Position numbers and translations under genes: made by a program
Part shown: positions 7,480-15,233 of the stretch, piece after piece
Position numbering within the stretch: position 1 is the first letter of the stretch
How the letters are laid out: each line of letters opens with the position of its first letter
Virus record (IMG/VR): IMGVR_UViG_2585427789_000028
Coordinates: 1-15,233 of that record
Strand: one strand, 5' to 3'
Source of the DNA: a virus
Taxonomy: Duplodnaviria > Heunggongvirae > Uroviricota > Caudoviricetes
DNA length: 15,233 bases
Notes under the pieces: generated by a model
What the model was told of the DNA's origin: nothing
The model's database searches: none
Seen by the model: the letters and a program-made list of their open reading frames with translations, nothing else

Positions 7480-8001
7480 TTACCTAAAAAACCACATATG
7501 GATATCACATACGACCCAGTACATAACCGGATGCCGCCACGGGAATCTTTCGGGACCACCAGGATATAAACTTTTTTCCTTGCTGTACCGGTGAAACTCC
7601 GCCATCACATCGTCAATGGTGACGCCAAGAACCATCTTGCTGTCTTTGCACCACTTGATGAATTGCCCAGGCGACGGCCAGAACGGAGATTCACTGGCGC
7701 GGGCGTGGCGCATACCAGCAGAAACTTGTTCACGGGTTCGGATCCCCCCTTCGGCAAACGCAGCAATCCACTGCTGTTTTGCAGCAACTTCCTGCTCTGG
7801 CGTCTTCAGGTTGGTTACCACTGCCGCCGGAAACAGTTGTTTCAGCTGTTTGAAAAGGGTATCAACAAGCCTCTCTGCTGACATGTTCACCACGTTGTCA
7901 TTGTTGGTGTACTGATGCTCATAACCTGACATGCGAGAAAGGGCTTCTCCGTCACGGTTTTGTATCGCGGTAAAAACGTTGTTCACAAGAAATCCTCCCA
8001 T
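7480..8001 (-). CDS. Lambda P-like replication protein (helicase loader), apparently C-terminally truncated
   Basis: Translation FPAAVVTNLK...WIAAFAEGGIRTREQVSAGMRHARASESPFWPSPGQFIKWCKDS aligns by eye with the lambda P N-terminal half (FPASLANRDQ...WVLAFRENGITTMEQVNAGMRVARRQNRPFLPSPGQFVAWCREE). The ORF ends about 80 residues short of lambda P (233 aa) just before the tailspike. Start codon uncertain. Confidence 0.65.
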   Translation of the reverse strand: MGGFLVNNVFTAIQNRDGEALSRMSGYEHQYTNNDNVVNMSAERLVDTLFKQLKQLFPAAVVTNLKTPEQEVAAKQQWIAAFAEGGIRTREQVSAGMRHARASESPFWPSPGQFIKWCKDSKMVLGVTIDDVMAEFHRYSKEKSLYPGGPERFPWRHPVMYWVVCDIHMWFFR

Positions 8002-8798
8002 GCTTCAGGGCTGTTCCAGTGCGGAACGTTGTTATCAGGTAATGTTGATTGCTTCTGTCTGCTAATCTGCAGCCGCCTTGCCAGCTTCTGCTCCCACTGT
8101 GCCTGATGGTATGCCTTACCCTCAGCCATCCAGTAAATTCTGAACTCTGCAAGTTCCTGTGCCGTTGGCAGACTGTCCAGGTAGATCCCCTGCAATGAGC
8201 TTTTCCGAAGAAAGTCATCTGATGGCCGCCATTGTTCATGCATGACAAATTTGCCTAATTGCCCTGGCCCACCAGGAGGAACAAAGTTATTCATCACGGC
8301 GTTGTTTGCGCCGGGGTCATGATGCACAGAATCCCCGTTTTTTGTCCTGCTCTCCCTCTCTTGGTTAAATGACTGGTTATATGACTGGTTCTGGATCCCG
8401 TTTTTGGGATCATTCAACATCCCGTTTTTGGGATCATTCAACATCCCGTTTTTGGGTATATTCCCGTTTTCGGTAACATTACCGTTTTCGGGTTCATTGC
8501 CCCCCTCCCGGTTGCCTTTAATGTTCCCGTTTTTGGTTATATTAAGAGAGAAAACCCGCACTCTTTTTGTCGCTCCCTTTCTCTCTCCGGTATCTGAAAT
8601 AAGCCCCATTTTCATGAGCGATATAAGCCCGGCCTGCACGGTTTTTTTATTCAGGCAAGTGTCTTTAACGAGGCGTTCTATGCTGGGGTAGCAGAGGTTA
8701 TATTCATCGGCTCTGTCAGCCATCGAGAGCAGTATGAGCTTTAATGATGAGCTACCTGGATCTGTCTCCCAGGCCCAATCTGTTGCATGTCTGCTCAT
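7983..8798 (-). CDS. O-like replication initiator protein containing internal iterons
   Basis: 271-aa ORF with GGAG SD, upstream of and overlapping the P-like gene. N-terminal HTH-like region. The central part is encoded by tandem DNA repeats (protein NGN/PKNG repeats), as in lambda O, which contains ori. Confidence 0.7.
   Translation of the reverse strand: MSRHATDWAWETDPGSSSLKLILLSMADRADEYNLCYPSIERLVKDTCLNKKTVQAGLISLMKMGLISDTGERKGATKRVRVFSLNITKNGNIKGNREGGNEPENGNVTENGNIPKNGMLNDPKNGMLNDPKNGIQNQSYNQSFNQERESRTKNGDSVHHDPGANNAVMNNFVPPGGPGQLGKFVMHEQWRPSDDFLRKSSLQGIYLDSLPTAQELAEFRIYWMAEGKAYHQAQWEQKLARRLQISRQKQSTLPDNNVPHWNSPEAWEDFL
8395..8542. repeat. Iteron array, putative phage replication origin inside the O-like gene
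   Basis: ATCCCGTTTTTGGGATCATTCAAC occurs twice exactly (8395-8418, 8419-8442), followed by degenerate copies with core CCGTTTT(T)GG through about 8542. An additional 10-bp direct repeat ATGACTGGTT lies at 8369-8378 and 8381-8390. Confidence 0.7.
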
Positions 8799-8813
8799 GA
8801 TTAATCTCCGCTA

Positions 8814-9014
8814 TCAGCTTGAGTGTTGTGGGGAGGAATTAATCATGATCTGCTTAATCTCTGCCCTGATGCGACGGTTTGATTCCATGGTGCACTCAAC
8901 ACAGTGTCCGTTGTAAACCCAGCGTTCACTGTCATGTCCATGCTTACATGGTTTTCCGGTGTAGTAGCGTTTAAGTCCGCGCTTTGCGGCATCAATACGT
9001 GTAATGATTTCCAT
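8814..9014 (-). CDS. Small Cys/His-rich (zinc-ribbon-like) protein between the Cro-like and O-like genes; function unknown
   Basis: ORF track gives 8814..9077. Start chosen at the internal ATG (MEIITRID...), the only one with a weak SD. Contains C-x2-H-x-H ... C-x2-C (GKPCKHGH...GHCVEC). Occupies the cII position. Confidence 0.45.
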   Translation of the reverse strand: MEIITRIDAAKRGLKRYYTGKPCKHGHDSERWVYNGHCVECTMESNRRIRAEIKQIMINSSPQHSS

Positions 9015-9117
9015 GGTAAGCCCTGTTATTAGTATTGGGATTACGGTCATTTTGTGCTGACACAAAAAAAAGATCAACCATATTTGGTTTTTTATTACCT
9101 TTGAGGTACGAATAGAT

Positions 9118-9143
9118 ATGAAAAGACCGCCGGGTGGCGGTCT
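9118..9143 (-). terminator. Putative intrinsic terminator downstream of the Cro-like gene (tR1-like position)
   Basis: On the minus strand: AGACCGCC-ACCC-GGCGGTCT followed by TTTTCATAT. An 8-bp GC-rich stem with a short T-run. Confidence 0.45.
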
Positions 9144-9164
9144 ACAGAGGGTTGTGGCTGGATA

Positions 9165-9395
9165 TCATGAGTAGAAGAAGTATGCCAGTTCTGCTTTTGA
9201 GCGCAGCCATTGTCTTGTTTTACAGGCTTTAAAAAGCCCATTCATCAATACCTTACCTGGCATTTTGCGCTTACCTGTTAAGTGAGTCTGGATATAGTGA
9301 CTCGTCGTTCCGGCTTCCTGTGCGAAGGCTTCACGCTCATCCGGAGTAAGTGCAAGCCAGTGCTTTTTGAAATCGAAATGTCCGTTATCGCTCAT
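9165..9395 (-). CDS. Cro-like / YdaS-type small HTH regulator
   Basis: 76-aa ORF divergent from the repressor gene. Translation LALTPDEREAFAQEAGTTSHYIQTHLTGKRKM resembles Cro/YdaS-family HTH proteins. Confidence 0.6.
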   Translation of the reverse strand: MSDNGHFDFKKHWLALTPDEREAFAQEAGTTSHYIQTHLTGKRKMPGKVLMNGLFKACKTRQWLRSKAELAYFFYS

Positions 9396-9549
9396 AGCTA
9401 TTGCCTGATATTTATTTCAGATAATAAATATTCACCCATAAGGTAACAAAAATCAAGGATAGTTACCTATGGGGTGCATTTACCTGTTGGGTAATATTGC
9501 TTTAAATTGAATCATCTACTGATTCATATATGAGGCGATTTTCCAGAAA
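9396..9549. promoter_or_regulatory. Divergent promoter/operator region of the immunity switch with repeated TTACC-N4-GGGT(AAT) palindromes
   Basis: Sites at 9463-9475 (TTACC-TATG-GGGT) and 9480-9495 (TTACC-TGTT-GGGTAAT), plus AGGTAAC at 9441-9447, between divergent Cro-like and repressor genes. Confidence 0.55.
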
Positions 9550-10134
9550 ATGAAAAGTATCCAGGACGTCCGCAGGCAAAATCTCAACGACTTGATCGAC
9601 CGTGAATTCAATGGTGTTCAGACGCGGATGGCTGAAAAACTTGGAACTCAGGCAAATCTGGTAAACCGCTGGGCTCTTGGCAAGAAGGTTATCGGCGACC
9701 AGGTTGCACGAAAAATTGAAGCTGCCGCCAATAAACCCCGTAACTGGCTTGATATTGATCGCTCGCTTTCTCAGGAGGGTTTTCAGCCTGTCGGCCCGAG
9801 TGATATAGGTCAGCTGGCGGCTCACAACCTGGAACGCTGGATGAGCGAAAGCCGCGACCTTTCAACGCAGGGAAAACTACACCGCGCATCCGGCGTCGCC
9901 CAGGTGACAATCAGCCGCCTGTTAAACAATGAGGTCAGCGTTTCCATTTCCACCCTGGAGAATGTTGCATCCGCATTCGGGCGTCACGGCTATGAATTAC
10001 TGATTCACCCGCACGACCCTGCGACCATCAACTATGATCGCTCGCGCTACGCATTGTTACCCGAAACCGAGAAAGCAAAGATCGAAAGTTACATTGAATT
10101 TGTCATCAACCAGAACGAAAAAAACAAACAATAA
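9550..10134 (+). CDS. Prophage repressor candidate with two HTH (XRE-type) domains and no recognisable LexA/S24 peptidase domain
   Basis: 194 aa. HTH-like segments GVQTRMAEKLGTQANLVNRW and GKLHRASGVAQVTISRLLNNE. Sits in the cI position, has its own terminator, and is flanked on both sides by operator-like palindromes. Confidence 0.65.
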   Translation: MKSIQDVRRQNLNDLIDREFNGVQTRMAEKLGTQANLVNRWALGKKVIGDQVARKIEAAANKPRNWLDIDRSLSQEGFQPVGPSDIGQLAAHNLERWMSESRDLSTQGKLHRASGVAQVTISRLLNNEVSVSISTLENVASAFGRHGYELLIHPHDPATINYDRSRYALLPETEKAKIESYIEFVINQNEKNKQ

Positions 10135-10155
10135 AATCATATTTTTCAGTAAGTA

Positions 10156-10179
10156 AGCCGCCTTCTGGCGGCTTTTTTA
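10156..10179 (+). terminator. Rho-independent terminator after the repressor gene
   Basis: AGCCGCC-TTCT-GGCGGCT followed by TTTTTT. Confidence 0.65.
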
Positions 10180-10187
10180 TTGCCTAT

Positions 10188-10287
10188 TCGATTACCTAAT
10201 GGGTAATTTTTTTAACTCATATCTATTGACACCAAACCAGATACGCATAATTATTACCTCAACGGTAACAGACCGAGGTAACAAGTT
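10188..10287 (+). promoter_or_regulatory. Early (PL-like) promoter with flanking operator palindromes
   Basis: TTGACA at 10226-10231, 17-nt spacer, AATTAT at 10249-10254. Operator-like sites ATTACC-TAAT-GGGTAAT (10191-10207) and TTACC-TCAAC-GGTAAC (10255-10270), plus AGGTAAC at 10276-10282. Confidence 0.5.
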
Positions 10288-10440
10288 ATGCAGTGGAAAA
10301 TCATCAACGGTTGGTACTGCGTTACTGCATGCGGATTCATGAGCTGGAAGTTCCGCACCTTACAGGAAGGCATTAAGTGGGCTTTCGTCAGCAAAGAAGC
10401 TCGCGATGTGGCCAACGATAACGAGATATGGGAGGGCTGA
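10288..10440 (+). CDS. Small protein (50 aa), first gene of the early operon; function unknown
   Basis: ATG at 10288 with GAGGT 8 nt upstream; stop TGA at 10438-10440. Translates MQWKIINGWYCVTACGFMSWKFRTLQEGIKWAFVSKEARDVANDNEIWEG. Not in the supplied ORF track (below its length cutoff). Confidence 0.4.
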   Translation: MQWKIINGWYCVTACGFMSWKFRTLQEGIKWAFVSKEARDVANDNEIWEG

Positions 10441-10442
10441 TA

Positions 10443-10742
10443 ATGAACGTTAATCAGCAGAAAAATCTTCAAAAAATCATGCTGGCATTCGACAAGGACT
10501 ACCGCCTGTCAGAACAGCTATATGACCGACAAGTTGAACTGATTGAGAGTATCCGGCTTCATCAACTGGCATCAACTTTCGACGTTGTAACAGTTAAAGG
10601 CGTTCGCCAGGAAGTACTGGAGGCCGCTAAAGACAGCCCTGAGTTCGAAGAACTAATGGATGCCTACCGGCGCGAGGCAATGGCAATTATCGCCCGCTGG
10701 GATCTGGCTGATCAGATTGATGGGCAGAGGGACGCGGCATGA
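10443..10742 (+). CDS. Hypothetical early protein (99 aa) immediately upstream of the recombination genes
   Basis: Start chosen at the ATG with GGAGGG SD (MNVNQQKNL...). Stop overlaps the exonuclease start (ATGA). Confidence 0.55.
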   Translation: MNVNQQKNLQKIMLAFDKDYRLSEQLYDRQVELIESIRLHQLASTFDVVTVKGVRQEVLEAAKDSPEFEELMDAYRREAMAIIARWDLADQIDGQRDAA

Positions 10743-11560
10743 ATCCGGGAATTTATTTCGATATCAGCAACGAGGACTACCACGCCGGTGACGGCGTGAG
10801 TAAGTCGCAGCTAGATATGGTGGCTAAGAACCCTGCCCTTCTGAAATGGGTGAAGGCTGCTCCGGAAGACGAAGAGAAGAAGTCTGCACTGGACATGGGT
10901 ACTGCTCTGCACTGTCTGCTTCTGGAACCTGGAGAGTTTGACAAACGCTTCATCGTTTCACCGAAATTCGATCGTCGGACAAAACAAGGTAAAGCTGACG
11001 AAGAGGCATTTATTCGTGATGTAGCGGATATGGGGATTTCGGTACTTGATGCAGAGCAGTGGCGAAAACTGGAGCTGATGCGTGATAGCGCAATGGCTCA
11101 CCCGGCGGCACGCTGGATGTTGGAAGCACCTGGTTACTGCGAAGCATCAATGTACTGGAACGATGAAGATACGGGTGAGTTGTGCCGAATTCGTCCAGAC
11201 AAATGGCTGAAAGAGCACAACGTGATCGTCGACGTGAAAAAGGTTGCAGATATGGACCGTTTTGCACGCCACATCGAGGAGTTCCGCTACCACGTGCAGG
11301 ACGCAATGTACCGCGAAGGCGCAATGAGGGTTACTGGTCAGCCACATGGTTTTTTCTTTCTTGCCGTGAGCGAAAGCATTGATTGTGGTCGGTATCCGGT
11401 ACGCGTGTTCGAGCTGGATGCGCCGGATGTCGATGCCGGGCACGCTCTGTTCCGCCGGGATCTGAATACCTATCACGAATGCCGCATCAACGATGAATGG
11501 GGCGGAGTGGAAATTATTAAACGCCCTGACTGGGCACGTAAACAGGATATGTACGTATGA
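10739..11560 (+). CDS. PD-(D/E)XK-family recombination exonuclease (RecE-like nuclease domain)
   Basis: 273 aa. Contains IRPD...IVDVKK consistent with a PD-(D/E)xK active site. Translationally coupled to, and directly upstream of, the annealing-protein gene. Confidence 0.7.
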   Translation: MNPGIYFDISNEDYHAGDGVSKSQLDMVAKNPALLKWVKAAPEDEEKKSALDMGTALHCLLLEPGEFDKRFIVSPKFDRRTKQGKADEEAFIRDVADMGISVLDAEQWRKLELMRDSAMAHPAARWMLEAPGYCEASMYWNDEDTGELCRIRPDKWLKEHNVIVDVKKVADMDRFARHIEEFRYHVQDAMYREGAMRVTGQPHGFFFLAVSESIDCGRYPVRVFELDAPDVDAGHALFRRDLNTYHECRINDEWGGVEIIKRPDWARKQDMYV

Positions 11561-12438
11561 GCAATGATATCGCAATCACATCACAACCAGGCGCAACTGT
11601 AGGCACTGCTGCGGCAATCTTCAGCCCCGAGGGCATGAATCAACTGGTGCGTTTCGCGGAGTTGATGTCACAAAGCAAAGCGACTGTACCGAAACATCTT
11701 GAAGGCAAACCTGCCGATTGCCTGGCGGTGACCATGCAGGCGGCACAGTGGGGAATGAACCCTTTCGCCGTGGCGCAGAAAACGCATGTGGTAAACGGAA
11801 CGTTAGGCTACGAAGCACAGTTGGTAAACGCGGTCGTATCCTCTTCCAGCCTGCTGGCGACACGCCTGAATTATCGCTGGAGCGGTGACTGGTCGAATGT
11901 TAACGGCAAAACAGATAAATCACCGAATCTGACGGTAACTGTGTCAGCAGTTCTTAAAGGAGAAGCAGAACCACGTGAGCTTACCATCAGTATGGCGCAA
12001 GCAGGAGTGCGTAACTCTCCATTGTGGGAACAGGATCCGCGCCAGCAACTTGCCTATCTTTGCACGAAACGATGGGCTCGCCTGCACGCTCCTGATGTAC
12101 TTCTCGGTGTTTACACCCCTGACGAATTACAGGAAACGGCACCGCGCGTTGAGCGAGACATTACTCCGCAAATGACTACGGCTGCGGGAATGAACAGTCT
12201 GATCAACGCTAAATCAGTGAAAAAGCCTGATGAGCAAACGCGTAAAGCGGATAGCCGTGAGCCAGAAGAAATGCTGATGGCCTTTACCAGCGCAGCGATG
12301 AATTACAGCACTGTCTCCGAACTGGATAAGGCTTACAAATACATTGCACAAAAACTTTCAGATGATGACGAACTGCTGGCAAAAGCCACCGACGTTTACA
12401 GCGTTCGTCGGGAAGAATTAAACGAAACATCTATGTAA
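11557..12438 (+). CDS. Single-strand annealing protein of the RecT/Red-beta superfamily
   Basis: 293 aa. Segments MQAAQWGMNPFAVAQK and SPLWEQDPRQQLAYLCTKRWARL resemble lambda Bet (ANQYGLNPWTKE, GPWQSHPKRMLRHKAMIQCARL) as recalled from memory. ATGA overlap with the nuclease gene. Confidence 0.8.
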   Translation: MSNDIAITSQPGATVGTAAAIFSPEGMNQLVRFAELMSQSKATVPKHLEGKPADCLAVTMQAAQWGMNPFAVAQKTHVVNGTLGYEAQLVNAVVSSSSLLATRLNYRWSGDWSNVNGKTDKSPNLTVTVSAVLKGEAEPRELTISMAQAGVRNSPLWEQDPRQQLAYLCTKRWARLHAPDVLLGVYTPDELQETAPRVERDITPQMTTAAGMNSLINAKSVKKPDEQTRKADSREPEEMLMAFTSAAMNYSTVSELDKAYKYIAQKLSDDDELLAKATDVYSVRREELNETSM

Positions 12439-12487
12439 CCACCACCGCGGCGCCACGCGCGCCGCACTGCAACCAAGAGAGGTATTT

Positions 12488-12736
12488 ATGAAAGGTGCAT
12501 TAGGTAAGAAGGAACTCCTGGCGGTGGTGCCACTGTCATGGAGCACTATCGACCGTATGGAGCGCGCAGGGGAATTTCCTAAACGCTGGTATATCACCGA
12601 TAAACGCTGCGCATGGAACCGTGATGAAGTTGAGCGTTGGCTTGATGAACGTCAGGCAGCAAGCCCGGCAGAGTTCCAGGGTAAAAAACCTCCTGTTCAG
12701 CAACGTGTATATCGTCCTGTGAGCAACGCGGCATGA
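12488..12736 (+). CDS. AlpA-family small DNA-binding protein (excisionase or transcriptional regulator)
   Basis: 82 aa with GAGG SD. Pattern LLAVVPLSWSTIDRMERAGEFPKRWYI...W..DEVERWL matches the AlpA/phage-excisionase HTH family. Confidence 0.7.
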   Translation: MKGALGKKELLAVVPLSWSTIDRMERAGEFPKRWYITDKRCAWNRDEVERWLDERQAASPAEFQGKKPPVQQRVYRPVSNAA

Positions 12737-12849
12737 GTGTGCTGCTAAGGCACTGGAGCAAATGGTCAGGATGGTACTTATTCCTGGCCTCTGTTTCAGC
12801 ATGGCTTTATCTGCTGGCATTAATTTTCAGAGAGGGTTGGATTAAGTGA
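12733..12849 (+). CDS. Small hydrophobic peptide (38 aa, single predicted TM helix, Trp-rich), translationally coupled to the AlpA-like gene
   Basis: ATG overlaps the AlpA-like stop (ATGA). Translates MSVLLRHWSKWSGWYLFLASVSAWLYLLALIFREGWIK. Stop overlaps the GTG start of the next ORF. Not in the ORF track (below cutoff). Confidence 0.35.
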   Translation: MSVLLRHWSKWSGWYLFLASVSAWLYLLALIFREGWIK

Positions 12850-13145
12850 GAAAGTTAAGCCGACTTGAAAAATATCACATGAACAAGGTTTCAATGCGCA
12901 GCCCTTCAAAGGTTGTTGCCGTTACTCCTGCGGCGATAGAGATCGAAAAACGCGCGATTGAAAGAGAGAAAAAAGGGCAGTTCCGCATTGCCGCCCACCT
13001 TTGGCTTCAGTGTATGGATGTTGCTTCTGGTGATGTTGAACGTGCAAGGATCGCGGTTCGCAGGGACCAATGTATCACAAAAGGTAACGGCCTTCGCCGT
13101 GGCGACTATAGCGGCATAGGATGTTGTGGGGTGGTTTATGACTAA
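12846..13145 (+). CDS. Hypothetical small protein (99 aa), possibly a PerC-like regulator
   Basis: GTG start overlapping the upstream stop (alternative ATG at 12880). The segment EKKGQFRIAAHLWLQCMDVASGDVERARIAVRRDQC loosely resembles PerC/Pch-family regulators from memory; unverified. Confidence 0.45.
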   Translation: MRKLSRLEKYHMNKVSMRSPSKVVAVTPAAIEIEKRAIEREKKGQFRIAAHLWLQCMDVASGDVERARIAVRRDQCITKGNGLRRGDYSGIGCCGVVYD

Positions 13146-13788
13146 GAAATACACACTAATCTATGCAGATCCACCCTGGGCATACCGGGACAAAGCCACA
13201 GATGGTAATCGCGGTGCCGGTTTTAAATATCCGGTTATGAGTGTGCTGGATATCTGCCGCCTTCCTGTGTGGGATTTGGCCGGTGAAAACTGTCTGTTGG
13301 CCATGTGGTGGGTGCCAACACAACCACTCGAAGCACTAAAAGTTGTTGAAGCCTGGGGATTCCGTCTGATGACCATGAAGGGCTTCACGTGGATAAAATG
13401 TGGTAGTCGACAACCAGATAAACTGGTTATGGGGATGGGACACATGACTCGCGCCAACAGTGAAGATTGCCTGTTTGCGGTAAAGGGAAAACTACCTCCG
13501 CGCATTAATGCAGGTATCGTTCAGTCATTTACCGCACCGCGGCTTGAGCATTCAAGAAAACCAGATGTCGTTCGTGAAAAACTTGTGCAATTGTTAGGCG
13601 ATGTTTCTCGCATTGAACTGTTCGCCAGACAGTCGTCTCATGGCTTCGATGTTTGGGGTAATCAGTGCGAAGACCCGGCAGTGCAACTACACCCAGGATA
13701 CGCGTTGGATATTGCCGGATTAACAAATGCATTCAGCAATGCTCCGCTGTCACCAACAGACAACCAGGGGCGGGAGCGTGCAGCATGA
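13138..13788 (+). CDS. N6-adenine DNA methyltransferase, MT-A70-like, with no adjacent restriction endonuclease in the window
   Basis: DPPW motif (LIYADPPWAY) near the N-terminus, typical of adenine-N6 methyltransferases. Start ATG at 13138 overlaps the upstream stop (ATGACTAA); the ORF track's 13126 would be a GTG start. Confidence 0.8.
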   Translation: MTKKYTLIYADPPWAYRDKATDGNRGAGFKYPVMSVLDICRLPVWDLAGENCLLAMWWVPTQPLEALKVVEAWGFRLMTMKGFTWIKCGSRQPDKLVMGMGHMTRANSEDCLFAVKGKLPPRINAGIVQSFTAPRLEHSRKPDVVREKLVQLLGDVSRIELFARQSSHGFDVWGNQCEDPAVQLHPGYALDIAGLTNAFSNAPLSPTDNQGRERAA

Positions 13789-13979
13789 ACAGGGCATCAC
13801 CAGCAGATTTAAGGAAATGCCTTGAAACTGCAAACATGCTTGCACACAGCGGGATCAGGTTTGTTCCAATTCCCGCTGTCACTGATGCTGAATTTGCAAC
13901 ACTGTCAGCAATATTCACAGATAAAATTGAATCACTGGCAGCAGAAGCCGAGATGGAAGAAAATCAGCAGAACTATTAA
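13785..13979 (+). CDS. Hypothetical small protein (64 aa), translationally coupled to the methyltransferase
   Basis: ATG at 13785 overlaps the methyltransferase TGA (ATGA). Stop at 13977-13979, 3 nt from the convergent integrase stop. Confidence 0.45.
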   Translation: MNRASPADLRKCLETANMLAHSGIRFVPIPAVTDAEFATLSAIFTDKIESLAAEAEMEENQQNY

Positions 13980-13982
13980 ACG

Positions 13983-15233
13983 TTATTCCCCCGCCATCCA
14001 CTTCTCAAACTTCGACGGGGAGAACGGAATCAGATCCGTATGCTCCCCGTTAATCCAAGAATCAATCATATCGGCCCACTGCTGCAACATGTAGGCGCGC
14101 TGTCTGGCGTATTCCGCTTTGTTATATACGGCGCGCACACCTTTCTGCTCATGTGCCAGAGCCTTTTCAATCCAGTCTGAAGGATAACCAGCCTCATGCA
14201 ACAACGTACTGGCTGTACGGCGCATATCGTGTACGGTGAAGTCCTGAATATGCTCACCATCTTCATTTATTATTTTCACCGTTCTGTCGATCAGAGAGTT
14301 CAGCGCGGCATTAGATAATGGCTTCCGGAAATTGTAACGACCAGGAACCAGATATTCACTTCCACCAGCGCACATCTGCAACCCGACCAATATATCCTGA
14401 ACCTGTTTAGGCAGGTAAATAACATGCGCCCGGCTTCCCTTCATGCGGTCTGAAGGAATTGTCCATGTCCATTTTTTAAAATCTATTTCATCCCACGTTG
14501 CATTGGTGAATTCGCCCTTACGAACCATAGTGATAAGCACCAGTTTTAAAGCCATTTTCATAGTGCCCATAGCACCAATGGCATCCAACGTGCGGAAGAA
14601 CAGGCCAATTTCTTCTGGTGTCAGTGTTCGCTCTCGTGGTTTAAATATGGCGATAGACGAAGGTTTAATGTCAGCCGCAGGATTAAACAAACCATGACCA
14701 CGGTCATTGGCGTGACGGTATACGCTGCTGATGATCTCCCTGGCCTGTACTGCTGTTGCCCGACCACCGCGTTCGACAATCCGGTCACACAAATCACGAA
14801 CCATCGATGTGGTAATTTCAGCCATCATTTTGTTGCCAAGAACCGGAAGTATGTCACGGTCGATCACCGCCTGCTTCATTGCGCGGGTACTGTCAGCCAG
14901 GATGACGTGTTTCATATAACTGTCGGTATGTACCGCAAACGTCTCGGCACCACGAATTTTTTTGATACCGTCACGTTTAGCCGCAGCCGGCGACTGGCCT
15001 GCTTTAAGCAGCTTCTTTGCAGCAATCAGTTCTTCTCGCGCTTCTGCCAGGCTGATACCGTCACGCCCATACTGCCCGATTACCAGTGTTTCGCGGCGAC
15101 CGTTGATACGGTAGTCATAGCGAAACGAGACCGTGCCTGACGTAAGCACAGCTACATACAGCCCGTCACGATCGGAGACCTTGTACAGTTTGTCCTGCGG
15201 CTTGAGGTTTTTTAATTTTGTATCGGTAAGCAC
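13983..15233 (-). CDS. Tyrosine integrase, P4-like family (partial: N-terminus at or beyond the window edge)
   Basis: 416-aa ORF reaching the window end. N-terminal arm-binding-like sequence LTDTKLKNLKPQDKLYKVSDRDGLYVAVL; C-terminal catalytic region with HDMRRT...LAHE...Y typical of tyrosine recombinases. Confidence 0.9.
   Translation of the reverse strand: MLTDTKLKNLKPQDKLYKVSDRDGLYVAVLTSGTVSFRYDYRINGRRETLVIGQYGRDGISLAEAREELIAAKKLLKAGQSPAAAKRDGIKKIRGAETFAVHTDSYMKHVILADSTRAMKQAVIDRDILPVLGNKMMAEITTSMVRDLCDRIVERGGRATAVQAREIISSVYRHANDRGHGLFNPAADIKPSSIAIFKPRERTLTPEEIGLFFRTLDAIGAMGTMKMALKLVLITMVRKGEFTNATWDEIDFKKWTWTIPSDRMKGSRAHVIYLPKQVQDILVGLQMCAGGSEYLVPGRYNFRKPLSNAALNSLIDRTVKIINEDGEHIQDFTVHDMRRTASTLLHEAGYPSDWIEKALAHEQKGVRAVYNKAEYARQRAYMLQQWADMIDSWINGEHTDLIPFSPSKFEKWMAGE

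What the first reader, a model, noticed from the sequence alone, without database searches (positions are those of the whole stretch)
9396..10287. Immunity region: tandem-HTH repressor without a LexA-like cleavage domain, flanked by a family of TTACC-N4/5-GGTAA operator-like palindromes
At least five related palindromic sites cluster on both sides of the repressor gene (9463-9475, 9480-9495, 10191-10207, 10255-10270, plus GGTAAC half-sites). This is an OR/OL-like layout, with one cluster between the divergent Cro-like and repressor genes and one overlapping a near-consensus early promoter. The repressor has two HTH motifs and no evident S24 autopeptidase domain, so induction may rely on an antirepressor rather than RecA-stimulated self-cleavage. 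A weaker TTACC-N5-GGTAC copy lies at 9095-9109.
Basis: partly seen in the sequence, partly recalled or inferred. Interest (0 to 1): 0.45.

Follow-up and report, generated by a model that had tools for sequence, protein, structure and literature searches.

The report
Known phiV10/epsilon15-type prophage immunity switch
This is the repressor gene and its DNA binding sites from a well-known family of E. coli/Salmonella prophages (phiV10, epsilon15, SPC32H), sitting here in a crippled prophage that has lost the antirepressor gene that would normally switch it off; it is real but already understood.

Summary
TTACC-N5-GGTAA palindromes are strongly enriched around the 194-aa gene: 5 sites with at most 1 mismatch, all within 9095-10268, against 0.32 expected. 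181 kb of host DNA holds 1 perfect site; this 1.2-kb stretch holds 3. All spacers are N5.

The protein is 100% identical to the phiV10/ZX5 repressor. It is a full-length homologue of Salmonella phage SPC32H Rep (PDB 5D50, E=4e-42) and has no S24 peptidase domain. The literature describes SPC32H Rep as a tetramer that a small LexA-controlled antirepressor (Ant) takes apart. The epsilon15 GenBank record already annotates the equivalent palindromes as repressor-binding sites.

Two additions:
- The promoter-flanking operator pair lies 62 bp apart in 13 of 14 such pairs across seven genomes (one is 63 bp).
- This copy is a defective prophage. A roughly 25-kb deletion (junction 7503/7504) removed ant, its LexA box and the late genes, so this copy keeps the repressor but has no ant gene and no LexA box.

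Interest is low.

The parts
9550..10134 (+). rep: 194-aa prophage repressor (N-terminal HTH DNA-binding domain, middle HTH_3-like dimerisation domain, C-terminal tetramerisation/Ant-binding domain)
   Evidence: 100% identical to phiV10p40 and ZX5 ORF21. PDB 5D50 SPC32H Rep, E=4e-42, residues 1-190 aligned to 2-197. Pfam HTH_3 at 106-147, no S24. Domain names from PMC9986798. NLVNRW (36-41) is invariant in 6 relatives.
9165..9395 (-). Cro-like 76-aa HTH protein (homologue of phiV10p41 / epsilon15 gp39)
   Evidence: phrog_35 'transcriptional repressor', E=5.6e-13. No Pfam or PDB sequence hit. AF2 model pLDDT 81.6 with five helices; best fold matches are YdaS, 434 repressor and C.AhdI at TM 0.55-0.62, but with weak E-values. 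AGTTSHYIQ.HLT is invariant in 6 phages.
9432..9446 (.). Operator OR-a, TCACCcataaGGTAA (1 mismatch); lies inside the leftward PR-like promoter
   Evidence: Position conserved in 6 phages. Overlaps both candidate PR promoters (and inspection of alignment A1).
9463..9477 (.). Operator OR-b, TTACCtatggGGTGC (2 mismatches; degenerate in the phiV10 group, perfect in epsilon15, SPC32H and Klebsiella phage BUCT711)
9480..9494 (.). Operator OR-c, TTACCtgttgGGTAA (perfect), 17 bp from OR-b and 48 bp from OR-a
9421..9456 (-). PR-like promoter for the Cro-like gene. Two overlapping candidates: TTGTTA-17-TATTAT (9449 to 9421) or TTGATT (9456-9451)-17-GAATAT (9433-9428)
   Evidence: The first comes from the scan (9 of 12). 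The second is inferred from the invariant AAAAATCAA block in alignment A1. No transcript data.
10155..10181 (+). Intrinsic terminator after rep
   Evidence: 8-bp stem, 6 GC pairs, T-run. Annotated in phiV10. Conserved in Tyrion and BUCT554.
10191..10207 (.). Operator OL-up, ATTACCtaatgGGTAAT (perfect 6-bp arms), 19 bp upstream of the -35 of PL
10226..10254 (+). PL-like early promoter, TTGACA-17-AATTAT
   Evidence: 10 of 12. CTATTGAC and ATTATTACC are invariant in 6 phages.
10253..10269 (.). Operator OL-down, ATTACCtcaacGGTAAC; it shares its first bases with the -10 and covers the expected transcription start. It is 62 bp from OL-up.
10288..10440 (+). First gene of the repressed leftward operon (phiV10p39 homologue), followed by the RecE-like nuclease and RecT
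9124..9143 (-). Intrinsic terminator after the Cro-like gene
   Evidence: Annotated in phiV10. Conserved.
9095..9109 (.). Accessory operator-like site, TTACCtttgaGGTAC (1 mismatch), 17 bp upstream of a conserved promoter-like element
   Evidence: The position is conserved at 1 mismatch in phiV10, Tyrion and the Klebsiella phage, and at 2-3 mismatches in epsilon15, SPC32H and BUCT554.
9049..9077 (-). Conserved promoter-like element, TTGATC-17-CAAAAT, ahead of the p42 and replication genes
   Evidence: GGTTGATCTTTTTT and AAAAT are invariant in 6 phages. It scores 8 of 12, below the scan threshold. Inferred.
7503..7504 (.). Deletion junction of the defective prophage. It joins phiV10 coordinate 20917 (upstream of the tail fibre gene) to 34730 (inside replication gene P). 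Lost: ant, its LexA box, the Bro-N antirepressor, all head and tail genes, and a third Rep-controlled promoter.
   Evidence: blastn against phiV10. (junction present in 1 of 5426 E. coli genomes). (P annotated as truncated). (no Ant homologue and no LexA box in the window).

Best explanation
Identity. The region is the immunity (lysis-lysogeny) switch of a phiV10/epsilon15-type (Uetakevirus) prophage integrated at guaA in E. coli.

The repressor. The 194-aa Rep is a non-cleavable, SPC32H-type repressor. It has an N-terminal HTH domain that reads DNA, a middle HTH-like dimerisation domain, and a C-terminal p53-like tetramerisation domain that is also the antirepressor docking site.

Operators and promoters. 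Pairs of N-terminal domains bind the 15-17-bp palindromes (A)TTACC-N5-GGTAA(T).
- At the leftward early promoter PL, two operators 62 bp apart bracket the promoter. One lies 19 bp upstream of the -35. The other is fused to the -10 and covers the start site. A Rep tetramer can therefore hold both and shut the RecE/RecT operon.
- Between rep and the divergent Cro-like gene, three operators (centres 31 and 17 bp apart) overlap the Cro-like gene's promoter and lie next to the still unidentified rep promoter. This resembles lambda OR1-3.
- A further site (9095-9109) sits upstream of a conserved promoter-like element for the replication genes.

Induction in the intact phage. DNA damage removes LexA from the ant promoter. 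Ant then takes the Rep tetramer apart and releases it from DNA. Rep is not cut by RecA-stimulated autoproteolysis.

This copy. A roughly 25-kb deletion has removed ant and all late genes. The element can keep expressing Rep and the O-antigen acyltransferase, but it has no ant gene and cannot make phage.

Shown here: motif enrichment, site positions, promoter overlap, conservation, homology, absence of an S24 domain, and the deletion.
Taken from the literature on the homologue: tetramer binding and the Ant mechanism.
Inferred: which sites Rep and the Cro-like protein each occupy, clamping across the 62-bp pair, and the rep promoter.
For: - Motif enrichment.
- Promoter and terminator positions.
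- Footprints. The half-sites, the -35 and the -10/operator fusion are invariant in six phages, while the OL alignment averages only 52% column identity and the OR alignment 75%.
- Spacing. It is 62 bp in 13 of 14 promoter-flanking pairs across seven genomes.
- Repressor identity and homology. 100% identical to the phiV10/ZX5 repressor. SPC32H Rep, PDB 5D50, E=4e-42 over the full length.
- No S24 domain.
- The recognition-helix motif NLVNRW is invariant, and the tetramer-interface aromatics are conserved: SPC32H F187/F190 align with Y181/F184 here.
- Experiment on the identical protein. Overexpressing ZX5 ORF21 abolished free phage and cut lysis-gene transcripts by more than 99.9% (PMC9782041).
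- Literature on the homologue. SPC32H Rep binds palindromic sites as a tetramer, and tetrameric Ant breaks it into dimers (PMC9638917; PMC9986798). LexA-controlled antirepressor induction is cited for Kim and Ryu 2013 (PMC7380047).
- The epsilon15 GenBank record annotates the same palindromes as 'protein_bind: repressor'.
- phiV10p24 is 88% identical to SPC32H Ant and has CTGTATAAATACACAG upstream.
- Deletion.
Against: - No binding or transcript data exist for this exact sequence.
- The primary SPC32H and epsilon15 papers could not be read here. Details of Rep-DNA binding therefore rest on secondary descriptions and my recollection.
- Rep is only 42% identical to SPC32H Rep overall, and 34% in the middle domain. 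Transferring oligomeric state and Ant sensitivity is an inference.
- No convincing promoter for rep was found.
- The OR spacings (31, 17 and 48 bp) do not match the 62-bp rule, so the tetramer-clamp picture may not apply there.
- The Cro-like protein has an equally invariant HTH and could be the main reader of some sites.
Confidence: 0.85

Rival explanations
1. The palindromes are read mainly by the 76-aa Cro-like protein (or by it alone) and Rep recognises something else.
For: The Cro-like HTH (AGTTSHYIQ.HLT) is invariant, and the protein is 58-84% identical across the genus. That matches the invariance of the half-sites at least as well as Rep does, at 42-78%.
Against: - Sites of the same motif lie ahead of late, lysis and tail-fibre genes throughout the phiV10, SPC32H and epsilon15 genomes. 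That fits a prophage-silencing repressor.
- The epsilon15 curators assign the sites to the repressor.
- SPC32H Rep is described as binding palindromic sites.
- The Rep recognition motif NLVNRW is also invariant.
- Shared operators for both proteins, as in lambda, is the simplest reading.
Confidence: 0.05
2. A classical lambda/LexA-type switch: Rep is inactivated by RecA-stimulated self-cleavage and the antirepressor is irrelevant.
For: The overall OL/OR layout is lambda-like.
Against: - There is no S24 domain.
- The whole length aligns to SPC32H Rep, whose domains are DBD, dimerisation and tetramerisation.
- The parent phage carries an Ant homologue with a LexA box.
- A review cites Kim and Ryu 2013 for antirepressor-mediated induction.
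Confidence: 0.03
3. The motif cluster in this copy is a dead relic: the remnant no longer expresses Rep and the sites have no present function.
For: The prophage is defective and its deletion junction is unique to one strain. No rep promoter could be identified.
Against: - Rep is 100% identical to the repressor of viable phages.
- The window's immunity region (8800-10800, which holds all six sites) is 97.7% identical to viable phiV10, and all seven aligned genomes keep the same site layout.
- The deletion looks recent: 1 of 5426 genomes carries it, and flanks remain about 96-97% identical to phiV10.
Confidence: 0.07

Closest known systems
Salmonella phage SPC32H Rep-Ant system (PDB 5D50, 5D4Z; Kim and Ryu 2013; Kim et al. 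2016)
   Same: - Full-length homology, E=4e-42.
- Same three-domain order and conserved tetramer-interface aromatics.
- Same TTACC-N5-GGTAA sites at the same places, with the same 62-bp pair spacing.
- Same gene order.
- The parent phage phiV10 has an 88%-identical Ant with a LexA box.
   Different: - Only 42% identical overall: N-terminal domain 54%, middle domain 34%, C-terminal domain 48%.
- PL has two operators here against three in SPC32H and epsilon15.
- OR-b is degenerate here.
- ant is deleted from this copy.
Escherichia phage phiV10 gp40 / vB_EcoP_ZX5 ORF21 repressor
   Same: Protein 100% identical and DNA 97.7-98% identical. Overexpression of ZX5 ORF21 blocks lytic growth.
   Different: Those are intact, viable phages carrying ant and Bro-N antirepressor genes. 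This window is a deletion derivative. Operators are not annotated in the phiV10 record.
Salmonella phage epsilon15 gp38 repressor and its annotated operators (GenBank AY150271.2; Kropinski et al. 2007)
   Same: ATTACC-N5-GGTAAT sites are annotated as repressor-binding at the PL side and at other promoters. The OR three-site layout is the same, at 30/17 bp against 31/17 bp here.
   Different: The repressor is 42% identical. The central N5 is A/T-rich in epsilon15 and mixed here. The record does not annotate the OR-side sites or the site after the Cro-like gene's terminator.
Lambda CI/Cro with OR1-3 and OL1-3
   Same: Works alike in several respects: a repressor gene transcribed in the same direction as PL, a divergent small HTH gene, three operators in the divergent region, and operators overlapping PL and PR.
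   Different: Not a member of that family. There is no S24 autocleavage domain. The oligomerisation module differs. The Cro-like gene is followed by a terminator, and the replication genes appear to have their own promoter. Induction goes through an antirepressor.
Coliphage 186 CI/Tum and Gifsy/Fels-2 antirepressors
   Same: The induction logic is the same: LexA represses an antirepressor gene, and the antirepressor inactivates a non-cleavable repressor.
   Different: The repressor and antirepressor folds are unrelated. From my recollection of Kim and Ryu 2013, SPC32H Ant is described as a structurally distinct class.
pLS20 Rco/Rap (TetDloop tetramer, DNA looping)
   Same: An N-terminal HTH plus a C-terminal p53-like tetramerisation domain, with an antirepressor partner.
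   Different: Rco has no middle dimerisation domain, comes from a Gram-positive plasmid, and has no detectable sequence similarity in the tetramer domain.

Membership tests
SPC32H/epsilon15-type Rep (Uetakevirus prophage repressor) | Full-length sequence homology to the solved SPC32H Rep | tested here: met
   phmmer against PDB: 5d50_A E=4e-42, query 1-190 aligned to 2-197; 5d4z_A (residues 92-198) E=4e-20.
SPC32H/epsilon15-type Rep (Uetakevirus prophage repressor) | Domain order: N-terminal HTH DNA-binding domain, middle dimerisation domain, C-terminal tetramerisation/Ant-binding domain with an aromatic interface (F187, F190) | tested here: met
   The alignment covers all three domains. F190 aligns with the invariant F184, and F187 with Y181. 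Pfam sees HTH_3 at 106-147 and a weak HTH at 21-61. No structure of this protein was modelled.
SPC32H/epsilon15-type Rep (Uetakevirus prophage repressor) | No RecA-stimulated autocleavage module (peptidase S24) | tested here: met
   No S24 hit in Pfam at E<=0.01. The 194 residues are fully accounted for by the three domains.
SPC32H/epsilon15-type Rep (Uetakevirus prophage repressor) | Palindromic TTACC-N5-GGTAA operators at PL, at the rep/cro divergent region and at further promoters | tested here: met
   The epsilon15 record annotates them as repressor sites.
SPC32H/epsilon15-type Rep (Uetakevirus prophage repressor) | Cognate small antirepressor (Ant) behind a LexA box, divergent from the tail fibre/tailspike gene | tested here: not met
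   There is no Ant or Bro-N homologue and no CTGT-N8-ACAG box in the window. The locus was removed by the deletion at 7503/7504. The feature is met in the parent phage phiV10: p24 is 88% identical to SPC32H Ant and has a LexA box. This is loss from this copy, not evidence against homology.
SPC32H/epsilon15-type Rep (Uetakevirus prophage repressor) | Binds DNA as a tetramer and is released by Ant | not testable with these tools
   Known only for SPC32H Rep, from secondary descriptions.
Lambda CI / LexA-type (S24) cleavable repressors | C-terminal peptidase S24 domain with a Ser-Lys dyad and an Ala-Gly cleavage site | tested here: not met
   No S24 hit. The C-terminal half is homologous to the SPC32H Rep dimerisation and tetramerisation domains.
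Lambdoid immunity-region layout (functional analogy only) | Divergent repressor and Cro-like genes separated by a tripartite operator, plus a second operator cluster on PL downstream of the repressor gene | tested here: met
   Three OR sites. Two PL sites and the promoter. The Cro-like protein is supported as an HTH protein by PHROG and a predicted fold.

The most novel reading that the evidence does not exclude
Rep control in this phage group may rest on a reusable 'bracketed promoter' cassette. The cassette is: operator, 19 bp, CTATTGA(-35), 17 bp, then a -10 fused to a second operator, with the operators 62 bp (six helical turns) apart. It is seen at PL and at a third promoter after the replication genes (P3, deleted here). 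One Rep tetramer would clamp both operators and cage the promoter. The replication-gene promoter at 9049-9077 has only the upstream operator-like site, and no downstream partner was found. This architecture, and the orphan, ant-less immunity module that a host strain retains, do not seem to have been described explicitly for the phiV10 group.
Probability: 0.4. Interest if true: 0.3.

Novelty: already known. Interest (0 to 1): 0.15.

Why it matters
It matters little beyond correct annotation. It confirms that this widespread E. coli prophage family uses the SPC32H-type non-cleavable repressor; the immunity region is found in 566 of 5426 complete genomes. It gives exact operator and promoter coordinates for the phiV10 group, which its GenBank records lack. 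It also flags that strain AST205-like genomes carry an ant-less remnant. By inference, that remnant could still confer immunity to phiV10-type phages, which matters if such phages are used for O157 detection or biocontrol. The conserved 62-bp operator pair offers a simple, testable handle on how the Rep tetramer engages DNA.

Tried and rejected
- Primary papers. Kropinski 2007, Kim and Ryu 2013 and Kim 2016 are not held. I used secondary descriptions and GenBank annotation instead.
- N4 spacer variant: zero matches.
- Promoter for rep. The consensus scan found none. TTTACC (9479-9484)-17-TTAAAT (9502-9507) is conserved in alignment A1 but scores only 8 of 12. I kept it as a low-confidence idea only.
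- Downstream partner for the 9095-9109 site at +62 bp: not found. At +60 bp there is only a decayed TGACC...CCCAA.
- Cro-like protein. No Pfam hit and no PDB sequence hit. Foldseek E-values are all at or above 1, although the top folds are all HTH types.
- Ant or Bro-N homologue, or a LexA box, in the window: none.
- Rfam families in the window: none.
- The idea that the remnant is a widespread 'domesticated' form is rejected. The junction is in 1 of 5426 genomes.
- I did not model Rep or run the large protein-database searches, because the PDB homology already settles its identity.

Full report
**What the window is.**
- Positions 8800-10800 are 97.7-98% identical to Escherichia phage phiV10 and its relatives (genus Uetakevirus). 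They are 100% identical to the chromosome of E. coli AST205, and similar DNA occurs in 566 of 5426 complete E. coli genomes.
- Annotation of phiV10 and AST205 gives the gene order. Reading rightwards on the + strand: rep (9550-10134), a terminator, then a small-gene/RecE-like/RecT/AlpA/PerC/methylase operon, and the integrase next to guaA. Reading leftwards on the - strand: a 76-aa gene (9395 to 9165), a terminator, a small gene, a DnaT/O-like gene and a P-like gene.
- This is the lambda arrangement: the repressor gene points the same way as PL and diverges from a Cro-like gene and the replication genes.

**Check of the observation.**
- TTACC-N5-GGTAA with at most one mismatch occurs five times in the window, all between 9095 and 10268. 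Shuffles give 0.32 expected, and none of 200 reaches five. Three sites are perfect: 9480-9494, 10192-10206 and 10254-10268.
- The N4 version has no match.
- Against 181.4 kb of the host chromosome (1 perfect, 12 one-mismatch sites), the 1.2-kb region is enriched with Poisson P of about 5e-8.

**The protein.**
- Pfam finds HTH_3 at residues 106-147, a weak YdaS-type HTH at 21-61, and no peptidase S24.
- The protein is 100% identical to phiV10p40 and to ZX5 ORF21. It aligns over its whole length to the Salmonella phage SPC32H repressor, PDB 5D50 (E=4e-42).
- Published descriptions give that repressor three domains: an N-terminal DNA-binding domain, a middle dimerisation domain, and a C-terminal tetramerisation/antirepressor-binding domain with a p53-like fold (PMC9986798). 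It binds palindromic sites as a tetramer, and the tetrameric antirepressor Ant splits it into dimers (PMC9638917).
- So the second 'HTH' is the dimerisation domain, not a second DNA reader.
- Identity to SPC32H Rep is 54%, 34% and 48% for the three domains.
- The likely recognition-helix motif NLVNRW is invariant in six relatives, and the interface aromatics are conserved.
- Overexpression of the identical ZX5 protein abolished free phage and reduced lysis-gene transcripts by more than 99.9% (PMC9782041).

**Operators in relatives.**
- The epsilon15 GenBank record annotates ATTACC-N5-GGTAAT sites as 'protein_bind: repressor'. They lie on the PL side, before the terminase gene, before gp3, in the gp19/tailspike intergenic region, and after the replication genes.
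- My scan finds the same motif at the equivalent places in phiV10, SPC32H, Tyrion, BUCT554 and Klebsiella phage BUCT711.
- Alignments of the two intergenic regions average 52% column identity on the PL side and 75% on the OR side. Yet the half-sites, the -35 (CTATTGAC) and the -10/operator fusion ATTATTACC are invariant.
- At PL, and at a third promoter beyond the replication genes, the two operators are 62 bp apart in 13 of 14 pairs across seven genomes; one pair is 63 bp. The cassette is: operator, 19 bp, -35, 17 bp, then a -10 whose last base is the first T of the second operator.
- Between rep and the Cro-like gene there are three sites in every phage, with centres 30-31 and 17 bp apart. 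Here their quality is 1, 2 and 0 mismatches.
- The site nearest the Cro-like gene (9432-9446) lies inside the leftward promoter, whichever candidate is right: TTGTTA-17-TATTAT from the scan, or TTGATT-17-GAATAT built on the invariant AAAAATCAA block.
- I could not identify the rep promoter.

**The weak site at 9095-9109.** It follows the terminator of the Cro-like gene (9143-9124). It sits 17 bp upstream of a promoter-like element, TTGATC-17-CAAAAT (9077-9049, - strand), whose core GGTTGATCTTTTTT is invariant in all six phages. The site keeps its position at 1 mismatch in phiV10, Tyrion and the Klebsiella phage, and at 2-3 mismatches in epsilon15, SPC32H and BUCT554. It is probably a real accessory operator for a separate replication-gene promoter. 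No downstream partner was found.

**The Cro-like protein.** It has no Pfam or PDB sequence hit, but it matches PHROG 35, 'transcriptional repressor' (E=5.6e-13). A single-sequence AlphaFold model (pLDDT 81.6) is a five-helix bundle. Its best PDB fold matches are YdaS, the 434 repressor DNA-binding domain and C.AhdI (TM 0.55-0.62), though E-values are weak. Its HTH, AGTTSHYIQ.HLT, is invariant across the genus. 'Cro-like' is reasonable but not proven.

**Induction.**
- In SPC32H, ant lies divergent from the tailspike gene. phiV10p24, at the same position, is 88% identical to SPC32H Ant and has the LexA box CTGTATAAATACACAG upstream.
- A review cites Kim and Ryu 2013 for SOS induction through a LexA-controlled antirepressor rather than repressor cleavage (PMC7380047). 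The detail that SPC32H Rep is not cleaved is my recollection of that paper's abstract.

**This copy is defective.**
- blastn against phiV10 shows window 7302-7504 matching phiV10 21119-20917, and window 7503-11834 matching 34730-30380.
- A deletion therefore joins the region just upstream of the tail fibre gene to the middle of gene P. P is annotated as truncated in AST205.
- The deletion removes ant, its LexA box, the Bro-N antirepressor, all head and tail genes, and the third Rep-controlled promoter.
- The window has no Ant or Bro-N homologue and no LexA box. The junction is found in only 1 of 5426 genomes.
- The remnant keeps Rep, the operators, the recombination operon, integrase, lysis genes, a tail fibre gene and an acyltransferase.

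**Verdict.** The modest additions are exact operator and promoter coordinates for the phiV10 group, the conserved 62-bp bracket, the accessory site with its promoter-like element, and the finding that this copy has lost its antirepressor.

Noticed in passing
window 7503-7504 (and the whole of 1163-15233): The prophage is a remnant of about 14 kb. A deletion of roughly 25 kb joins the tail-fibre upstream region to the middle of replication gene P. The junction is present in only 1 of 5426 complete E. coli genomes (strain AST205).
   Followed up: yes
window 4043-4292: An 8-bp tandem repeat, (GCACAGCA) x 31.8, lies between the 3' ends of the acyltransferase and tail fibre genes. The window differs from AST205 by about 113 bp in this stretch.
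   Followed up: partly
window 8395-8498: A 24-bp unit x 2.6 (ATCCCGTTTTTGGGATCATTCAAC) and an 18-bp unit x 3.1 lie inside the DnaT/O-like gene (7983-8798, - strand). These are probably replication-origin iterons, as in lambda gene O. AST205 appears to have 24 bp less in this gene.
   Followed up: partly
window 3025-7301: The acyltransferase (3268-4179) and the 1024-aa tail fibre gene (4351-7425) have no nucleotide match to phiV10. This looks like a swapped receptor-binding/serotype-conversion module.
   Followed up: no
L009 (phiV10) 20543-20800 and L004 (SPC32H) 19676-19936: Ant is 88% identical between phiV10 and SPC32H, although the Reps it should target are only 42% identical (middle domain 34%). 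This raises the question of which Rep surface Ant recognises, and whether Ants cross-act between these phages.
   Followed up: partly
L009 (phiV10) 87-119, 3252-3266, 20497-20511, 20877-20891, 24692-24706, 35070-35146; equivalents in L004 and L010: Rep-type palindromes occur throughout intact genomes. They lie at or just before the small-terminase gene start, ahead of the portal-region operon, on both sides of ant, and ahead of the holin/lysis genes. A 62-bp pair also brackets a third promoter after gene P. Rep therefore appears to silence many promoters directly, not only PL and PR.
   Followed up: partly
L003 45487-45501 (about 40 bp beyond the right end of the window); phiV10 26870-26884: A one-mismatch copy of the motif (TTACCttaaaGGTAT) lies between the integrase gene and attP. 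In the epsilon15 record this area is annotated with integrase and RNase III sites.
   Followed up: no
window 10739-12438: The RecE-like nuclease (273 aa) and RecT (293 aa) are separate overlapping ORFs here. The phiV10 record annotates a single 'recET fusion', and similarity to phiV10 is interrupted at 11834-12031.
   Followed up: no
window 9271-9285: A two-mismatch copy (TTACCtgttaAGTGA) lies inside the Cro-like coding sequence. It is probably chance: about 5 such sites are expected per window at 2 mismatches.
   Followed up: no
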